DNA of 52,797 nt from Rotaria socialis (lineage: Eukaryota). The translations under genes were made by a program, and so were the position numbers. Of this stretch, positions 34,418-46,001 are shown piece after piece; the stretch's first letter is position 1, and each line of letters starts with the position of its first letter. Where the stretch lies: the NCBI GenBank assembly GCA_905331295.1, contig CAJNYD010000039.1, forward strand, positions 348,734-401,530. The letters run 5' to 3'. The notes below the pieces were generated by a model that worked only from the letters and a program-made list of their open reading frames with translations, was not told where the DNA came from and did not search any database.

Positions 34418-35476
34418 CACTGAAAAAAAAGGTACCATACCGAACCCTAAAGGTTTCCGATTTTTGCAACCAAATCGAAATCCTTTGAGGTTTCGTAGAA
34501 ATTGGATTTCGTAAAAAGCCTTAATTTTAATAGCTGATAACAGGAGTTTCGTACTTGGGGTTCAGTATAATTCACCACGCAATGTTGAATGAAAGATTCG
34601 CCGGGTGCTATGCTCCATTATGGAAGTAGTTTTCCACCACTATCCACTGCAAAACACACCCACTCTCTAAANNNNNNNNNNNNNNNNNNNNNNNNNNNNN
34701 NNNNNNNNNNNNNNNNNNNNNNNNNNNNNNNNNNNNNNNNNNNNNNNNNNNNNNNNNNNNNNNNNNNNNNNNNNNNNNNNNNNNNNNNNNNNNNNNNNNN
34801 NNNNNNNNNNNNNNNNNNNNNNNNNNNNNNNNNNNNNNNNNNNNNNNNNNNNNNNNNNNNNNNNNNNNNNNNNNNNNNNNNNNNNNNNNNNNNNNNNNNN
34901 NNNNNNNNNNNNNNNNNNNNNNNNNNNNNNNNNNNNNNNNNNNNNNNNNNNNNNNNNNNNNNNNNNNNNNNNNNNNNNNNNNNNNNNNNNNNNNNNNNNN
35001 NNNNNNNNNNNNNNNNNNNNNNNNNNNNNNNNNNNNNNNNNNNNNNNNNNNNNNNNNNNNNNNNNNNNNNNNNNNNNNNNNNNNNNNNNNNNNNNNNNNN
35101 NNNNNNNNNNNNNNNNNNNNNNNNNNNNNNNNNNNNNNNNNNNNNNNNNNNNNNNNNNNNNNNNNNNNNNNNNNNNNNNNNNNNNNNNNNNNNNNNNNNN
35201 NNNNNNNNNNNNNNNNNNNNNNNNNNNNNNNATATTACGAAACCTTTCTGAATACGAAACTCAAAAGAGTTTTTGACCAAACCTCTGTGGCAACGTAAAA
35301 TTCGAAGGGTTCCGGACGAAACCTTTTTATATTTTAAAACTCTTTAAAGTCTTTTACGAAACCTTGGATATCGCGAAACCTCATGCAGGTTTCGCATTAT
35401 TCTACTGATACTTATATAGTATAGTAAAACTCGACGAAACCTCAAAGGTTTCGTGTGGTACCTTTTTTTTTCAGTG
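34418..35476. mobile_element. Non-autonomous EnSpm/CMC element (contains N gap 34672-35231)
   Basis: TIRs CACTGAAAAAAAAGGTACCA and TGGTACCTTTTTTTTTCAGTG, 2-bp TA TSD, CGAAACC/GGTTTCG subterminal repeats. Confidence 0.9.
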
Positions 35477-35654: not shown

Positions 35655-38600
35655 CTACAAAACAACACATAAAGACGAATGAGTTTTTTTTGGTGAATTT
35701 GTCTTGTTCTTTAACATCTTCATATGATTCTCGAATGCAGTTTTCAAATTCTTGTTTCGATCCAACAGCACTTTTTCTGGTGGAAAATTTAATTGCCGAC
35801 CATCTCCAAAAATGATCTTGTCTTCACCATCGAAAGCTATTGCGATACCTTGCAGTAGAGTGAGATATATTATCAACTCAAGCCAGTAAACCTGTCCGGA
35901 ATCGAGATAACGCTTCACGAATTCACTGACGGTAAAACCTTGACAATGAACGGCACTATTATTTTTGATATATGATTTAACCTGCTGCACGAAGTTTGCA
36001 TCCCATAATTCTATATTATCAACGCGATATACTATCCTGTCGAAGACATGGGCACTATAGCGACTGCCATCTCTACCTTCCATAGACATCTCAAATTTCA
36101 CCAAGGCCTGAAACATTATATTCGACTTTTTCTCACCAATCTTATTGAAAGTTTCACGAGCGCTGCTTTTAACCTGGCTGTTTTCATCATTAATTGCCAT
36201 CACCAACTTCTGAATGACTTCCTCATTCAATTCCTCATTTTGTCCAATTTTACCAAGCGCTTCACAAGCCATCTTTCTTAGCTCGAAGTTCTCATCGATA
36301 AGTATTTTGGACAATTCGTTCATTACTTGAGTATTCCTTGCTACATTTTCACCTAGCTTGCAGATAGTTTCACAAGCTGCTAGTTTGACATTATCATGGT
36401 TGTTCTGGAGTACTTCACTGAGCCCTTTCATGATATTTACATTGGATGTTGCTTTTCTACCTATCGTAGCAAGGGCTTTGCAGGCCTCTGTTATTATATC
36501 AACATCATTATGTAAGAGTGCTTTTGCTAATCCATCCATGACTTTATTATTGTCTGCTGCTCTTTCGCCTATGGATAATAGAGCTCTACAAGCTGCGATT
36601 ATTAATTCTTTGCTTTCATCACTGAGTGCTCTTCCCAATCCAGCCATGATATGCTTATCGGATCCTGCTTCATCAGCTACACTGCAAATATCTTCACACG
36701 CTTTTCTTCTAACTGCCTCATTTGTATCTTTGAGTGCTTCCCTTAGTTCAGAGATGATCTGTTCATTCGATACTGCTTCATCACCTATCTTTTTGATGGC
36801 TTCATAAGCATTGTATACGACGAGGCAATTGTCGTTGCTAAGTGCTTTTATTAAATCGTCCATAACATCTTCATTGTTAGCTAGTTTTCCACCTACCTCA
36901 CCAAGGGCATAACAGGCCGCTATTTTAACATTGTCGGACTCGTGCTGATCGCCAATTACTTTGCTAATAGAAATCATCAGTCTTGTGTTAGATGCTGCTT
37001 TTTTACCAATCTTACCAATCAATTCACAAACTTTTCGTCTGATCACCTCGTGTCTATTATGAGCTAGTACTTCTACCAATTTATTCATTAAATCTTTGCT
37101 CCTTGCAGCCTTTTCACCTATCTCGCCGATCATATGGCAAGTTCCTATAATCACTTCGACATCAGGATTCATCAGGCTATTGGCCAGAAACAACATGAAA
37201 TTCTTGTTGGATCCAAATGTTTTAGCTATTTCCTGAAGAGCGATGTTGACACGAAATCTTACAGTGTCTCGTTGATCACTGAATGCTTTTAACAGTTTGC
37301 TCATGACTTGTTTATGGCAAACTGCTTTTTCGCCGATCTCAACCAGGGCTTCACACGCCTCTATTACCAGAGTTTCATCTTCATTGCTGAGAAATGTACT
37401 CAGCTTGTCGAATTCTTCGGTAGTGATTTCTTCTCCGTTCTCGACGCTCCAACGGAGTTGATTATATATGCGGTTTCGATCGATGCGCTTTCGGCGTTCA
37501 ATTTTCCAAACAGACCTTTCGTAAAATAACATTTCGCGATCAAACATTGTCTGAGGTATGCAAATTGACTGCTTCGGATAACGAACTGTCTGCAGCATAC
37601 AATGGCGTCCGTAACTTTTTTCTTCCCTAGATTGGCGAATTGTGCGTTCAGAATTGTTCAGTGGATTGATATCAATGGTCACTGCTAATAGATTACGCCA
37701 TTTGTTATTGTACATTTCATCCCACTTTTTTTTTGCGAGTCCAATCTTGACATGTTCATTCGTAGCTATCCCTTCAGCAATTTTATCAAGAACGTCGCTG
37801 GCATAATCTCGAACAATCTGTTCACGATCCTTCAAGGCTTTGACCAGAATAGCGATTAGTTTTTCATTTGCGATTGGTTTTTCACAGCTTTCTACGAGGG
37901 CTTTTAGTGCTGATTTTCTCACGAAAGCTACTTTATCGTAGACTAATTTAGACAGTGTATTCATAATTTTTTGATAGGATAATGCTTTTCCACACATCTT
38001 ACCAAAGGCTCGACAAGCCGCTACTGTAACAGATACGTCTGGGTCATGCAATCCTTTCTTTATTCCAGCTACGATTAGTTCATTCGTTGCTGCTATTTCA
38101 GCTATCATTCCAACCTGATTACATGCCAATTTTCTAATATTGTGGTCCGGATCAATAATTGCATCCCAAAGTCTGCACACAATTTCTTTATTAAGTATTC
38201 CTATGCTTCTAACCTCATCAATCAACTCATTGGAAATTATTGGCTCTAAATCTTCTAAGGAGATGTACTCGGCAGATTGACGCATCAGCGTGCATCCGTG
38301 GATGTTAGGGGGCAGTGTTGTTTCGTGTACCTCTACAAGAGCTAGATAAGCATTAAGCTTTACAATCGGCTGCTGATCATTGCATGCATGCACGAGTCCA
38401 TCCACGACTTTGCTACGCAACCCTTCTCTCGGTATAGTTAGGTCATATTCAGTCACATACCTATTGTCCTCGTTCTCCACATCCACTTGCATGTGCACAT
38501 TAACCATATTGTCTTCGTTGCATGTTACTCTTTCCCGTATATTGCCGAGCGCTTTACAAGCCATTATTTGGACTTCAGAATTTGGAGTTTTTAGTGCTTT

Positions 38601-41600
38601 CAGCAATGCTTTCTTTACTTGTTCATTCGATATTGCTCTATTACCGATCTTACCCAACGCTTCACAGGCTGATACTTTGACCTCGTCGTTTTCGTCATTC
38701 AGTGCTGCTGCTAATGCAGTCATGATATGTTCATCAGATACTGTTCTATCACCGAGCTCACCCACTGCTTTACAGGCTGCTATTTTGACCTCGTCGTTCT
38801 CGTCGCTTAGTGCTGCTGCTAATGCAGTTATGACTCGTTTATTCGATGTTACTTTATCGCCCATTTCACAGATAAGTCCACATGTCCTTCTTCTAATTTC
38901 TGTGTTCTTACAAGTGAGAGACTTACAGAGACCTTTCATGACTCCTGTAGCCGAAGCTGCTTTTTCGCCTAACACACCAAGTGAATGACCAGCCGCTATG
39001 ATAATTCCATCGTTCTGGTGACTAAGTGCGGAACCGAGTTGATTAAGAATTTCTCGATCAAGTGCTGCTTTGCCACTGATGATTTCAAGAACGTAAATCA
39101 CAGCCGTAAGCGCATTATCTTTCCATTGACAAATTGCTTCCCCCAGTTGAGCAAATATTGTATTATTGCGAACTGCCTCTTCAGCGATATTGACAAGAAC
39201 TTCACAGCTCAGTTTTTTTATATCTTCCTTATTGAAAAGCGTTTCTCCTAGACTGGTCATGACTTTTTCATTCGATGCTACTTTCCCACCAACTTTTTTG
39301 ACAGCGTGACAAGCTGCTATTTTGACTTCATCGTTCGGATCTTTTATTGCTTCTGCCAGTGCATTCATGAGTTTTTCACTTGATGCTACTTTCTCACCAA
39401 TTCCACTAACAACACGACAAACCAAAATTTTAAGCTCATCATTTGAATCCTTCAGTGCAGCTGACAATCCGGACATGACATTTTCATTTAATTCTGCATT
39501 TTTACCGATTTTCTCAAGCCCATGAAGTGCCGCTTTTTTGAAGTCAATATTTGGATCGCCCAACATTTCCGTTAGGCGATCCATTACTAGTTCGGTAGTT
39601 GCTTCTTTTTCAACAATTGCATTCAGGGCCGTATGGGCACCGCATCGTACCTGATAACTTTTATGGCTAAGTAAGTCCACTAGTCGACTTTTCACTTTTT
39701 CGTTGGATGTTGCCCTTTCGCCTATTTGGTGGAGGGCATGACAAGCCGCTACTATCACCTCGTCTTTCGAATTTCTTAGCAAATCTTCAAGTTTGGCAAC
39801 AGTTTGTGTGTCCCACAATACTTGTTTGCTTAATTGGGCTATGGCTCTGCAGGCTTCTATTTTGACAACGTCGTTTTCGTGGGTAAGGGCTTTGATCAGT
39901 TCACACACTATATGCTCATTCGATGCTGCTTTCTCACCTAACTTCTTGAGGGCTCCTTGTGCACTAAGTCTAAGATGATCGCTTTGATCACTAAGTTGCC
40001 TGCCGAGTCCAGCCATTGCTTCCTTGTTTTCAACTACTTCTTGACCCAGTTTACTAAGGGCTTCGCACGCACTTTGCCGCACGTCGTCAGTTGGGTCGCT
40101 TAATGCTATGGCCAGTTGTTTTATGATTTGTTTTTTCGACAGTGCTCTTTCACCTATCTTACCGAGTGCTTCACAGGCACTTTTCCTCACATCATCATTA
40201 GGATCACTGAGTAATTTTTCCAAACCTTTCATGGCTTGCCGATTATCCACTGTGTTTTCACCTATGTAAGCGAGAGCTTCACAGGCTGCTATTTTGACAA
40301 TTTCATTTTTATGCATAAGTGTGTCACTTAACCCAACTAGTATTTCTTCGTCACAATCCGTCTTTGCAACAAGACTGATGAGAGCATGACAAACCGCTAC
40401 TCTAACGTCGTCATCTTGTTCATTCAATCCTTGTCGTATTTCTTCAACAATACGTTCAGTCCACTCTACTTTTTTACCTATTTCACCAAGAGCCTCCCAT
40501 GCCAACTGTCGTATGTTTGCTTCTTTATCATGTAATAATTCTAGGAGCAGCTTTCGAACGCTGTCTTTTTCGTTAGCTGTGACGACAAGATGAGCTAGTA
40601 CTATTATTCCTGCTTCCTTGATATCGTTACTTTCATGCGAACAAGTTTTTTGTATTTTTTGGACGAGTAGCTTTGATGGTTGTTGAAACGGTAGCATTGA
40701 TATAAGTCTGAGTGTTTCATAAAGTGTCTTTATATCATCGATTGATAAGAGAGAAATAAATGTGTTTTGTATCTTTTCCTCTTCGAGTAGTCTAGGTTGT
40801 CGTTTCAATGAAGATTTAAGATGATCAATAACCGTATAGTGTGGATCCATGATAGAAATTTGCAGCCATTCAATGGTTGAGTCAAAGAAATTGCTCTTTT
40901 TCTGCGGTTCGAGATGAATAAACGTTCCACCGAAACATTCAATAAGTAGTTTTGTATGCTGTAGTCCTAATAGATCCCTTGGTGTGTCGTCGATGATGGA
41001 GTAAAGTGTAGTTATTTCTTTCTGATCTTCTAAGACACATAGTTCAGAAGTAAATATCAAGACGGGAGTGAGTTGCTGATCATATTTGTATTTTTTGATG
41101 AAATCGATCACTTGTTTTGAATTACTAGAGTCGAGCTGTCGAACCATGTATCGTGCAGCAAAAAATTCTTGAAAACTCCAATGAAGAAAATAATGCGATT
41201 GTTTAGCTAAGTCATCACTTTTAACATTGCTCGGATCAAATGCTTTCAGAATGCCAAATGATAATAGTTCTACATGGTTTTGTAAGGATAATTTATTTTG
41301 TTCAAGAGCTTTTTCGAACATATCGGGCGGGATTGTCATTTCTTTAGATGACATGGCGTAAAAAGCCAATGTTTCATGGAATTGCAGTAGTATTTTTACA
41401 AAAGCATCGCTGGTTTTAGCTGAGGTATTATTCGCTTTCTTACTATTTTTTCTTCCCCTTAAATATCTCTCAGTTAATTGTTGGATCAAATGTGTGTATA
41501 ACGTAGTTATCGTAAAATCATCTGTCTGAAGTTGGTAGTCTCTATTGCCCCAAAAGTTACAAATCAACTCTAGTAATAGAGGTATATGTGCAACATCCCA

Positions 41601-44600
41601 TAACATAGGACGTCGACGTAAAAATTTCACGAGCTCTTCTTGCTTGAAAGAAGTATTTTTGGGCGGTTGTTCTGACTTTTTGTCAATCTGTTCAAAAAAT
41701 TGCGCCACATACCTTGATATATCATCATCAATAAAGCCTATCATTTCCATTTTCACATCAGACATTAGTGGAAAATTCTGCAGTCGACATGTTACTATAT
41801 AATCATGCTGTGTGACGAGCTCGACTGTTTTCTTTAAGTTTTGTGGACCATTCGCCTGAAATTCATCGTAGCCGTCCAAGATCCATAGAATTTTACCTTC
41901 ATTGCATTGCTGATCAAAAAGCTCATAAGTTTCGTTTGATAAGTCTTTACCGTATAAGTATTCAGTCTTTAATAGATGTATTGGTGTGTATTCAATATCC
42001 GCCGAATACCGTTCACTTGTCAAATTACGTAAACAAATTAGAACAACTAGTTCGTACTTGGACCATATTTCATCTTTTGCCCAACGATAAGTAACATACT
42101 TGCAAAACGTTGATTTTCCAATTCCAGTTCGTCCACAGAGCAACAACTTCTTTGCATGATCTTTGTATTTGTCGAAAATACTCTCTGCACTAATGGAGGA
42201 CGTTACACTGTGAATCTTTTGATAAACACTTGACAATTTAGTATTAAATTTTTGTTTTAGAGAGGCGCGTTCTTGTTTGCCATAGGATCTATTCTGTTTG
42301 GTTAAATTCTTCTCTTTCTGTTCTTGATCATCCATTTCAACTATAGCCAAATTGATGAAGTTGTTTTCAATTGAATAACCTTCTCCTTCATTAAAGATTT
42401 TAGGGATGCGACTTTTTTCTTTGTAGTTTCTTTTGATTATATTAATTATCTTAGATAGATCAAGACAGTATTTCCCAGAGTCGTCCTATGAAGAATTAGA
42501 TAGATTCAATTAAGAAAAGAATTCGAAATCCAGCAATCGAAATAATCATCTGACATGTTCTTTAATAATTAATTCAAATAATCAAAGAATATAGCTTTTT
42601 TCATACAAAATATTACCTTATCGAATGGTAAGTCGGGTCTATATTTGATCTATGTGTGTGTACCTCACTGAATTAGACAGTCTAATTTAAGGTTCCAATT
42701 ATTTCGGAGATTCTGTCAAGGAATTCGATTTTTTTCAGTTCGTATTGTGACTAACAACTGGAATGATACATAACGAAATTGCATGGCCTTAGTGAGAATA
42801 TCTTATCCAATTCTATGTATCAGAATATTTTGATCAACATCTAGTTATCAGGACGTGTATACAATAGCTACGATAAAGTTTGAAAGTAACATTAACAGAA
42901 CACTTATCATCAGTAACAAGACTTCACTAAACAATGTAAAATATTTAAAAAACTTTTTCCATTTGAAAATCTAACAACAATTTTTTCGTACTGCTTTTTT
43001 TTTCGAGGATATATCTCAAGTGTTCATTGACTAGTACTAATATCGGATGTCCTAGGAAGAACAACTTTCAAGATTTTACTGATATCTCCGTCAATTGTTA
43101 TTGGGTTAGGGATAAGTTTTGTTTTTTAAAGATTCATCTCGATGTCCTCTGCTGAAGCCAACAATTCAGATTTTATGCAGATTTACTTTGGATCAGTATT
43201 AAAACGGAAAGGAGAGATATTCAAAAACTAGTTTTTTGTAAATATGAAGACGACGATCACTCGAGCAAGATCAGTGAGGATCTGAATCGATGCGTGAGAT
43301 TTAATACTTCAAAAGTGTATGTGAGATGATTCTAAGTACCAGCTCTATTCATTTATAAATATCATTGGATGGGTCCACGTTTAACTCGAACTACTAAAAT
43401 TATTCAAAAATTCAAGCATAAGCGCATCAAAAACAAGAACCTCATTAGAACTTTAGTCAATGAATATGGGATTTCTAAAACAAAGGTGCACCGAATATTG
43501 TGACATATTCTGAGATGTTATGCCTAATCGACAACAATCAAATCAAAGTAATCCGAAAAACACAATAGCAAACGAAAAACGCTTATTTTTAGATGAGCAA
43601 ATGAGAAAATGTCAATAGATTATAAAATTTCTAAAAAGAATGTATTTGGACAACTAACTGGGCTGAATTAAGTCAGAAAGTTTTCATGAAAAAGAAGCAC
43701 AATTTTTCTTAAAAAGGCAACGTCTGGTAGGTTGCTTGCTTGAAAAGAATGATTCTCTTGCTCTTTTTTACTAAGACATAGTAGCGCATTCTGGATATAT
43801 CGAAAATGTTCTATCGATAGCCGTAAAATATGAAATTACAACTTTTGAAAAGCAATTGACAACTCTAATCAAAGAATATTCGACAGGATATTGCTTCGCA
43901 ATTTTGGTTGTCCTGAAATTCTCGTTTAAAACGAATTTTCGATAATGGTAAATCTTTTTACTAAATTAGTCATAACTTTGCAGAGCACAAAAGGCAGAAT
44001 ATCACAACAAAATTAGTTCTAACGAATAAAAGATGGTAAGAGGCTCATTCTTCCTGGGATACCAGATGCATTGAAATCACGTTCGCCACCAAAGTTACAA
44101 TTTTTTCACAATCGATGAAACTATGAGATTAAATTACTAAGTTAAATACAGGAGGGCGAATCTTAGCGTGATTAGACTAAACACACCCAAGTTTTACAAT
44201 GCTATTCATTCTGAGATATTTTTACATCAGTGACTAGCCTGGATGAAATTCACTGTATTTCGAAATAGTTGAATTTACATGAATATTCATCCTTATATCA
44301 ACTGGCTTCGGTAACTTCACTATATTCGAATTCTAAAACGAAATTCATACGTTACCGATAATCTTTCAGCCAATAATTTTGCTATTCTTGCTGGCATTTC
44401 AGCTATTTTATTCAATATATCCCGTTGATCTTGCCGGGAATTTATTTTATCCATAATAGACACTTGAAACATAATCAAACCACACGATGCTTTCAAATTT
44501 TTATTTAATTTCTCTATATCTTTTGCTGCTCCTTTGTGAAATAAGAATTTAAATGGTTTAAATGCTTTTCTGTGTTTTTCGTGGAATACTTTGAATACTT

Positions 44601-44859
44601 CAAGATCCTCGATTAATATGTTCAATGACTTTTTTAAACTGTCTTTTGAATTCATAGTTGAATCTGCCTCCGCAGAACTGTTGGTTTCCATTATTTCCTC
44701 AAAATTTTGTAACTTTGGTAACTCATCTTTAATGATATCAACTTTTGCAATAAGCCGTTTACATTCTTCATTGTTTTCTTTGTATCCTTCGTAGGCTTCC
44801 TTTAGGTACATTGCTAAAGAGATGCCACCTTTTATTAGACCGACAACTGAATCTGCCAT
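35655..44859 (-). CDS. NLR-like protein: MLKL/HeLo-like N-terminal helical domain, NACHT NTPase, HEAT repeats, C-terminal CaaX (~2455 aa)
   Basis: Proposed exons 44859-44356, 42649-42617 and 42485-35655, all phase-0 GT-AG joins. Walker A GRTGIGKS, Walker [25 protein letters not shown] and [12 protein letters not shown]; many ~39-aa [20 protein letters not shown] repeats; ends CVVL*. Confidence 0.88.
43100..43900 (+). pseudogene. Decayed Tc1/mariner-like relic in the NLR intron
   Basis: Broken HTH-like translation [37 protein letters not shown] at ~43371-43520; shares a 20-bp segment with the MITE at 45684-45703. Boundaries approximate. Confidence 0.45.
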
Positions 44860-44930
44860 GCAAGACAAGGTTTTCTAAAATTCAAAGAAGTTAAAGATGT
44901 AAAAGCGACGATAACCGTAGTTTACGTTAT

Positions 44931-45703: not shown

Positions 45704-46001
45704 NNNNNNNNNNNNNNNNNNNNNNNNNNNNNNNNNNNNNNNNNNNNNNNNNNNNNNNNNNNNNNNNNNNNNNNNNNNNNNNNNNNNNNNNNNNNNNNNN
45801 NNNNNNNNNNNNNNNNNNNNNNNNNNNNNNNNNNNNNNNNNNNNNNNNNNNNNNNNNNNNNNNNNNNNNNNNNNNNNNNNNNNNNNNNNNNNNNNNNNNN
45901 NNNNNNNNNNNNNNNNNNNNNNNNNNNNNNNNNNNNNNNNNNNNNNNNNNNNNNNNNNNNNNNNNNNNNNNNNNNNNNNNNNNNNNNNNNNNNNNNNNNN
46001 N
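45704..46001. other. Assembly gap (N run)
   Basis: Run of n. Confidence 1.

What the first reader, a model, noticed from the sequence alone, without database searches (positions are those of the whole stretch)
35655..44859. Spliced NLR-like gene with an MLKL/HeLo-like N-terminus, NACHT and a giant HEAT array
Seen: the separate 182-aa ORF at 44320-44868 joins the 2231-aa ORF in frame through a 33-nt micro-exon, with all junctions phase-0 GT-AG. Its sequence ([46 protein letters not shown]) fits the xxNxxxCxRLxxxVxxLxxxLxxL pattern of MLKL four-helix-bundle and HeLo-like membrane-damaging domains. Known: effector-NACHT-repeat layouts with HeLo/4HB effectors and non-LRR sensors are typical of fungal and bacterial NLR-like cell-death systems, whereas animal MLKL carries a pseudokinase. 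Inference: a single-chain resistosome-like receptor in an invertebrate, possibly of horizontal origin.
Basis: partly seen in the sequence, partly recalled or inferred. Interest (0 to 1): 0.85.

Follow-up and report, generated by a model that had tools for sequence, protein, structure and literature searches.

The report
Rotifer fungal-style sense-and-kill immune receptor
A bdelloid rotifer gene encodes a NACHT ATP switch with a long, variable HEAT-repeat arm and is likely spliced to an upstream helical domain predicted to belong to the membrane-puncturing MLKL/HeLo family, which would give this animal an all-in-one immune receptor of a kind described in fungi and plants.

Summary
The window matches Rotaria socialis. 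Public models split the locus into a 179-aa and a 2226-aa gene. The 50 codons before the first Met of the NACHT exon are conserved coding sequence. A homologue, P0158, is one continuous helical-domain–NACHT–HEAT frame, joined at the equivalent phase-0 point with no spacer. The micro-exon is not needed for frame, and its acceptor ranks 69–73 of 102. No RNA was available. The N-terminus is a predicted four-helix bundle with weak but consistent links to MLKL_N and SesA-type families; fold searches were inconclusive. Relatives carry TIR, ART, ART+TIR or caspase heads instead. Their NACHT groups with bacterial sequences, but horizontal origin is not shown (AU p 0.05–0.4). Public variants differ in HEAT number and at a hypervariable patch. 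Function is untested. The scan reported a similar bdelloid gene on other DNA (e1-2578143).

The parts
44356..44859 (-). Exon 1, 168 codons: predicted four-helix bundle (about aa 5-137, mildly hydrophobic first helix) plus a further helical stretch; likely MLKL/HeLo-like effector
   Evidence: homologues
44320..44355 (-). Read-through tail (11 codons + stop) of the public 179-aa model; interpreted as the start of the intron after a phase-0 GT donor
   Evidence: 6 of 7 stand-alone homologous ORFs have Val (GTN) at the equivalent place
42486..44355 (-). Inferred 1870-nt phase-0 GT-AG intron (direct join, preferred model)
   Evidence: a 1646-nt intron splits a TIR domain in relative L058
42617..42649 (-).
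42336..42485 (-). First 50 codons of the NACHT exon, before its first Met: conserved pre-NACHT segment that needs an upstream exon
   Evidence: 40.6 bits vs best of 500 shuffles 9.9; acceptor rank 3-6 of 102
41154..42134 (-). NACHT module: Walker A GRTGIGKS (42134), Walker B ILDGYDE (41882), VTCR (41795), HIPLLL (41588), [12 protein letters not shown] (41189)
38502..40550 (-). HEAT block 1, 17 scored 36-aa units (a 107-aa gap leaves room for two more)
38620..38833 (-). Two 108-bp HEAT units 83% alike; four other public versions of the protein have 72 more residues here, in two different arrangements
37743..38174 (-). HEAT block 2, 4 units
37419..37748 (-). 110-aa non-HEAT insert with no Pfam match; holds a 57-aa hypervariable patch (37461-37631)
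   Evidence: 16 of 33, 16 of 31 and 17 of 27 differences to three variants fall in the patch, p < 1e-16
36210..37406 (-). HEAT block 3, 10 scored units
35655..36209 (-). C-terminal region and stop codon; no Pfam match above cut-off in the last 157 aa (35658-36128)

Best explanation
The locus encodes a NACHT switch with about 31 HEAT repeats and is likely one spliced gene of about 2444 aa whose first exon adds a predicted MLKL/HeLo-like four-helix bundle, so it would work as a single-chain sense-and-kill immune receptor. Inferred mechanism, by analogy with fungal all-in-one and plant RPW8-type NLRs: the HEAT arm holds the NACHT shut until a foreign ligand, or a pathogen-altered host protein, binds it or its variable insert. 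Nucleotide exchange then lets NACHT modules oligomerise, and the clustered bundles release their first helix into a membrane and kill the cell or open an ion channel. Shown: ORFs, NACHT motifs, HEAT array, a family with exchangeable heads, variation among public versions. Inferred: splicing (about 0.85; direct join preferred, micro-exon about 0.2), MLKL/HeLo kinship (about 0.75), membrane damage and immune role (untested), bacterial origin of the NACHT (about 0.65).
For: Splicing: the pre-Met segment is conserved coding sequence with no in-frame Met. P0158 is identical to the stand-alone ORF P0140 for 188 aa and then continues into NACHT-HEAT; its next 21 residues align without a gap to the first 21 of the window's NACHT exon. 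P0024, P0025 and P0137 have 22 residues there. Exon 1 is homologous to the P0024 head (SW 85 vs shuffles 31.7 +/- 5.8, 0 of 2000 as high). The window NACHT groups with the 4HB-bearing NACHTs in four careful trees, weakly (87/63, 95/87, 82/70, 80/54). Head identity: Pfam MLKL_N over aa 13-124 (E 0.011), also in homologue P0141 (E 0.044). Atlas gives 0.95 to fungal clusters carrying PF17111/PF17107, and 0.91-0.92 to MLKL_N clusters with RPW8 at 0.88 for the P0024 head. Both models give four long helices. Role: 23 of 28 bdelloid-type relatives carry TIR, ART, ART+TIR or caspase at this position, 2 carry the bundle, 3 none. Repeat-number and patch variation resemble fungal NLRs (PMC13449251, passages).
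Against: BRAKER models made with RNA-seq hints (PMC7943196, passages) leave the two ORFs separate in every public version seen (5 of 5 in each cluster). The donor at 44356 ranks only 32-47 of 121 under a small model trained on phase-2 introns, and a phase-2 donor at 44351 ranks higher. 14 short ATG-bearing first exons could also feed the acceptor. Relatives with no upstream effector exist (L007, L040, L042). The Pfam MLKL_N score (15.7) is under its cut-off (27). The head profile did not align with the MLKL_N head of fungal P0053. The window/P0024 grouping was unresolved in three fast trees. AU tests do not reject bdelloid plus other-animal monophyly (p 0.4, 0.05, 0.39).
Confidence: 0.55

Rival explanations
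1. The gene is fused as proposed, but the bundle is a signalling or oligomerisation scaffold that recruits other effectors (such as the family's TIR, ART or caspase members) and does not damage membranes.
For: Family matches are below cut-off. The first helix is only mildly hydrophobic (mean 0.47, moment 0.32). Killing is not established for all members of the superfamily, for example the Goodbye-like domains (10.1101/2022.03.16.484565, passages).
Against: The bundle starts at residue 5 with no N-terminal extension, as in MLKL/HeLo-like heads. The other heads at this position are enzymes of cell-death or defence type.
Confidence: 0.25
2. The two ORFs are separate genes, as annotated: a stand-alone 179-aa bundle next to a head-less NACHT-HEAT sensor that starts from a short exon, perhaps working as a sensor-effector pair like fungal HET-S/NWD2.
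For: All public models are split. The 11-residue tail is identical in R. magnacalcarata (weak, about one change expected). 14 alternative first exons. Relatives without an upstream effector.
Against: Continuous homologue P0158 and fused models P0024/P0025/P0137 break at the same point. Sister genes show the same split-or-fused ambiguity between assemblies (fused in 3 of 4 and in 6 of 13 models, one unrelated member dropped). No shared amyloid-like tag was seen by eye at the facing ends (not tested with a tool).
Confidence: 0.12
3. The gene is a decaying or non-immune member of a repeat-rich family, and its variation reflects drift, gene conversion or assembly error.
For: Long branch of the window NACHT. 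One public version is cut short at 1775 aa with an out-of-frame tail. The variants are gene models, not phased alleles.
Against: 6.8 kb of open frame, intact Walker A/B, exon 1 91% identical in a second species, and changes concentrated in one patch rather than spread out.
Confidence: 0.08

Closest known systems
Fungal all-in-one NLRs with HeLo-like / BaMLKL / SesA heads (Wojciechowski et al., 10.1101/2022.03.16.484565; review PMC12881547; passages read)
   Same: Helical head + NACHT + non-LRR repeats in one chain, and exchangeable heads. Fungal P0053 (Gryganskiella) carries MLKL_N + NACHT + HEAT by its precomputed Pfam list.
   Different: Animal host. The NACHT is in a bdelloid clade apart from the fungal/Mycoavidus clade. 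The head did not align with that of P0053. Repeats are only 29% identical on average, so there is no array-wide high internal conservation.
Bacterial NACHT (bNACHT) proteins with HEAT sensors (Kibby et al., 10.1101/2022.07.19.500537; passages read), here those of Chlamydiae, Coxiellaceae, Jidaibacter, Mycoavidus and uncultured Gammaproteobacteria
   Same: Closest non-rotifer NACHT modules found (up to 32% identity); many carry HEAT arrays. L081 is sister to the bdelloid clade (99/93, 99/95).
   Different: The rotifer genes have spliceosomal introns. No bundle head was found in the 53 bacterial loci, apart from one weak 14-bit hit in L085 that was not followed up. Their known heads include trypsin-like, ankyrin and pentapeptide domains.
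Plant RPW8-type (CC-R) NLRs and resistosomes
   Same: 4HB head on a STAND ATPase; the Atlas places RPW8 clusters at 0.88 for the sister head.
   Different: NB-ARC and LRR instead of NACHT and HEAT (own knowledge).
Animal MLKL
   Same: Weak match to Pfam MLKL_N across most of the domain.
   Different: No pseudokinase; activation would come from the attached NACHT rather than from RIPK3.
Animal NLRs (NLRC4/NAIP, NLRP; coral and amphioxus NACHT proteins)
   Same: NACHT with an NLRC4_HD2-like motif (E 3e-4).
   Different: HEAT not LRR; no death-fold head; they sit on a separate branch in all trees (6-10 animal-type rows, no vertebrate rows).

Membership tests
NACHT-class STAND NTPase / NLR-like protein | NACHT domain above Pfam cut-off with Walker A and Walker B | tested here: met
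   PF05729 39-41 bits vs 26.7; [15 protein letters not shown]
NACHT-class STAND NTPase / NLR-like protein | Helical/winged-helix modules after the NTPase | tested here: met
   HIPLLL and [12 protein letters not shown] motifs (their naming is recalled); NLRC4_HD2 E 3e-4, below cut-off
NACHT-class STAND NTPase / NLR-like protein | C-terminal superstructure-forming repeats | tested here: met
   HEAT_2 E 1e-107; 31 units of 36 aa
NACHT-class STAND NTPase / NLR-like protein | Ligand- and nucleotide-dependent oligomerisation | not testable with these tools
   needs biochemistry
All-in-one HeLo/MLKL-like NLR | Effector head and NACHT in one chain | tested here: inconclusive
   No RNA for this gene; strongly implied by P0158, P0137, P0024 and the conserved pre-Met segment
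MLKL/HeLo/RPW8 four-helix-bundle superfamily | Sequence-profile membership | tested here: inconclusive
   MLKL_N 15.7 bits vs cut-off 27; Atlas 0.95 to clusters where PF17111 is on 16-29% and PF17107 on 13-26% of members; sister head 0.91-0.92 to MLKL_N clusters
MLKL/HeLo/RPW8 four-helix-bundle superfamily | Four-helix bundle of MLKL topology | tested here: inconclusive
MLKL/HeLo/RPW8 four-helix-bundle superfamily | Extreme N-terminal helix that targets and permeabilises membranes | not testable with these tools
   first helix starts at residue 5 and is mildly hydrophobic; activity untested
Animal MLKL | C-terminal pseudokinase | tested here: not met
   no kinase family among the Pfam hits shown for either exon
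Animal NLR (NACHT-LRR) | Leucine-rich repeats | tested here: not met
   HEAT/ARM-type families, no LRR family among the 25 of 26 shown
Horizontally acquired bdelloid gene | Nested among non-metazoan homologues with animal monophyly rejected | tested here: inconclusive
   sister L081 then P0030; AU p 0.4, 0.05, 0.39

The most novel reading that the evidence does not exclude
Bdelloid rotifers took a bacterial NACHT-HEAT receptor, added introns and expanded it into their own NLR system, in which TIR, ADP-ribosyltransferase, metacaspase-like and MLKL-like pore-forming heads are swapped onto one sensor chassis. This gene is a self-contained animal resistosome whose HEAT arm changes repeat number and carries a fast-changing bait insert, giving an asexual animal a fungus-like way to diversify pathogen recognition.
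Probability: 0.35. Interest if true: 0.88.

Novelty: new variant of a known kind. Interest (0 to 1): 0.64.

Why it matters
[quoted passage not shown] They count 120 and 133 TIR proteins (treated as putative TLRs) and 101 and 70 caspase-like proteins of obscure origin in two Adineta species (10.1101/2021.09.04.458992, passages). This family offers a home for some of them as heads of intracellular NACHT-HEAT receptors, and adds an MLKL-like head wired directly to a sensor. I found no such layout described for rotifers or other animals in the searches made. It bears on how long-asexual animals keep up with pathogens, and is cheaply testable. It also shows that public gene models cut the head off this gene.

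Tried and rejected
No own genome is held. RNA: no RNA holder listed; the one run offered laid only a 41-base fragment; this is not evidence either way. Exon 1 found no relative among longer proteins, only itself at near length, and none in metagenome contigs; the profile search was needed (10 hits at E <= 0.001, two of them in the query). No bundle head lay upstream in any of 80 metagenome loci, the best 80 of 95. Foldseek gave no match at E <= 0.001 for either model; MLKL, RPW8 and HeLo structures were not among the 50 rows listed by VIA-align; sequence searches of the PDB gave only helical noise. P0030 found no genome. Withdrawn: the 6.9-kb caspase-to-NACHT intron called for L069/L075; other genes lie between and the real upstream exon is ART; the splice model was rerun with the correction. 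Dropped from splice training: duplicates, five phase-1 calls and two poor-donor calls. The idea that all heads share one intron phase is rejected: ART heads join in phase 2 (9 distinct introns, 49-391 nt), bundle heads in phase 0. L081 nested inside the bdelloids, but a tree with it outside had the higher likelihood. No AATAAA/ATTAAA follows either stop, so this does not discriminate.
Full report
Source and annotation. The long ORF matches a Rotaria socialis protein at 100% over the searched part. P0081 equals the window's translation from its first Met. The upstream ORF is the separate 179-aa model P0109, with a 91% identical R. magnacalcarata version. Those genomes were annotated with BRAKER and RNA-seq hints (PMC7943196, passages). 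The gene lies between N gaps at 34672-35231 and 45704-46001 and contains no N.

The observation. No RNA run could test this, so I tested it by comparison. First, the NACHT exon begins right after an in-frame TAG and has no Met for 50 codons. Those codons score 40.6 bits against a profile of relatives built without them, against 9.9 for the best of 500 shuffles. They must be entered by splicing, so the public 2226-aa model is truncated. Second, exon 1 is homologous to the head of P0024/P0025, public Rotaria models in which that head is fused to NACHT-HEAT; these sister genes are fused in 3 of 4 and 6 of 13 models. Third, a profile search of 1.84 billion representatives gave 10 hits: the window's ORF, P0024, a further fused R. 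socialis protein P0137, and seven stand-alone ORFs of 154-197 aa. Six of the seven end in Val plus a short unrelated tail at the point where fused models continue, as expected for read-through of a phase-0 GT donor; the seventh, P0141, has the Val a few residues later. The window's ORF ends the same way. P0158, in the cluster of P0140, is identical to it for 188 aa and then runs on into NACHT and HEAT, 1018 aa on a 3706-nt contig. That it derives from a spliced transcript is my inference. Its first 21 residues after the break align without a gap to the first 21 of the window's NACHT exon. This supports the donor at 44356, the acceptor at 42485 and a direct join.

The micro-exon. A weight matrix from 24 distinct introns of related genes, all phase 2 and therefore biased, ranks the acceptor at 42485 3rd-6th of 102, the micro-exon acceptor 69th-73rd, the micro-exon donor 2nd-18th of 121, the donor at 44356 32nd-47th, and a phase-2 donor at 44351 3rd-12th. 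133 frame-compatible internal exons and 14 ATG-bearing first exons can be drawn in the interval. The micro-exon is possible but no better than chance; a 22-nt version fed from 44351 is another option.

The head. Pfam gives MLKL_N over aa 13-124 at E 0.011, under cut-off. The Atlas gives 0.95 to fungal clusters carrying PF17111 and SesA; that PF17111 is the Helo_like_N model is recalled, while the link of Helo_like_N and SesA to MLKL is in passages of 10.1101/2022.03.16.484565. The sister head goes to MLKL_N, MCAfunc and RPW8 clusters. Two low-confidence models show four long helices and match generic bundles only. Kinship with MLKL/HeLo is likely, not proven.

The family. Of 28 bdelloid-type proteins (P0002-P0029; the unnamed ones assigned by tree), 18 have TIR, 2 ART+TIR, 1 ART, 2 caspase, 2 the bundle and 3 no head in the model (TIR and caspase checked by Pfam). 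Of 80 metagenome loci, 29 have ART+TIR, 28 ART, 18 TIR and 5 none within reach. The bundle type is a minority branch: the window NACHT joins P0024, P0137 and P0158 with weak support (80/54; 87/63, 95/87, 82/70 with P0024 alone).

Origin. Bdelloid NACHTs form one clade (96-100% bootstrap). Its sister is a gammaproteobacterial protein, L081, then the unnamed P0030; further relatives are from Chlamydiae, Coxiellaceae, Jidaibacter, Mycoavidus and Mortierellaceae fungi. Coral, amphioxus and unnamed animal-type rows lie apart, but holding them with the bdelloids is not rejected (AU p 0.4, 0.05, 0.39). The trees are unrooted, near-duplicates were left out, and no vertebrate NLR was included. Kibby et al. 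place even mammalian NLRs beside Rickettsiales (passages), so bacterial neighbours alone do not date the transfer. I put a separate bacterial origin at about 0.65.

The sensor arm. 31 units of 36 aa fall in three blocks, with a mean identity of 29%. The four other public versions have 72 more residues at a 108-bp tandem pair, in two arrangements. Three of them differ from the window at 27-33 residues, 16-17 of which lie in a 57-residue patch of a non-HEAT insert (p < 1e-16). This fits a surface under diversifying or balancing selection, or a converted tract; only proteins were available, so selection was not tested.

Mechanism and verdict. The layout matches fungal all-in-one NLRs, whose HeLo-type heads attack membranes through their first helix (PMC12881547, passages). 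I infer ligand sensing by the HEAT arm, NACHT oligomerisation and membrane damage by the clustered bundles; none of these steps is shown. It is a member of the NACHT STAND class, not of animal NACHT-LRR or MLKL families, and probably works like a fungal HeLo-like NLR. Nine literature searches were made (listings only unless noted) and none listed a description of this rotifer family. The Nowell preprint has no occurrence of NACHT or NLR, and PMC7145615 and PMC11291939 mention bdelloids only in their references (passages). The library lacks most subscription journals. The scan has already noted an MLKL-like NACHT in another bdelloid genome, which I did not check. Rated a new variant of a known kind, interest 0.64.

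Noticed in passing
window:31519-33519 +: 666-aa uninterrupted ORF with GtaA_6_Hairpin, DUF5127 and DUF4964 (glutaminase A type); recalled as fungal/bacterial, so a horizontal-transfer candidate next to the NLR-like gene.
   Followed up: no
window:49328-52140 -: ORFs with ART (ADP-ribosyltransferase) and TPR domains, probably one spliced ART-TPR gene upstream on the same strand; possibly another defence gene.
   Followed up: no
window:45085-47372: Nested inverted repeats just upstream of exon 1 (arms of 268, 121, 98 and 31 nt, 90-98% complementary), like fold-back or MITE elements; they span an N gap.
   Followed up: no
window:44874-44890 -: Acceptor-like pyrimidine run ending in AG 15 nt before the exon-1 ATG, suggesting a 5' UTR intron or a trans-splice site.
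   Followed up: no
window:10738-11604 -: ORF with an LDL-receptor class A repeat.
   Followed up: no
window:17623-21786 -: ORFs with weak DUF4218 and C2H2 zinc-finger hits, possibly a transposon remnant.
   Followed up: no
L081:1763-9181: 2472-aa gammaproteobacterial NACHT protein with pentapeptide repeats in its N-terminal part, the closest non-rotifer relative found; direction of any transfer unresolved.
   Followed up: partly
L093-L097, L105 (one Chlamydiales genome): Tandem array of many near-identical NACHT-HEAT genes within about 45 kb.
   Followed up: no
L044-L046, L053, L065, L027: Several ART-TIR-NACHT-HEAT genes lie on the same metagenome contigs, so the family clusters in bdelloid-like genomes.
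   Followed up: no
P0140 / P0158: A 7-residue repeat (T-A-E-N-T-Q-Q type) is expanded in the linker just before the exon junction.
   Followed up: no
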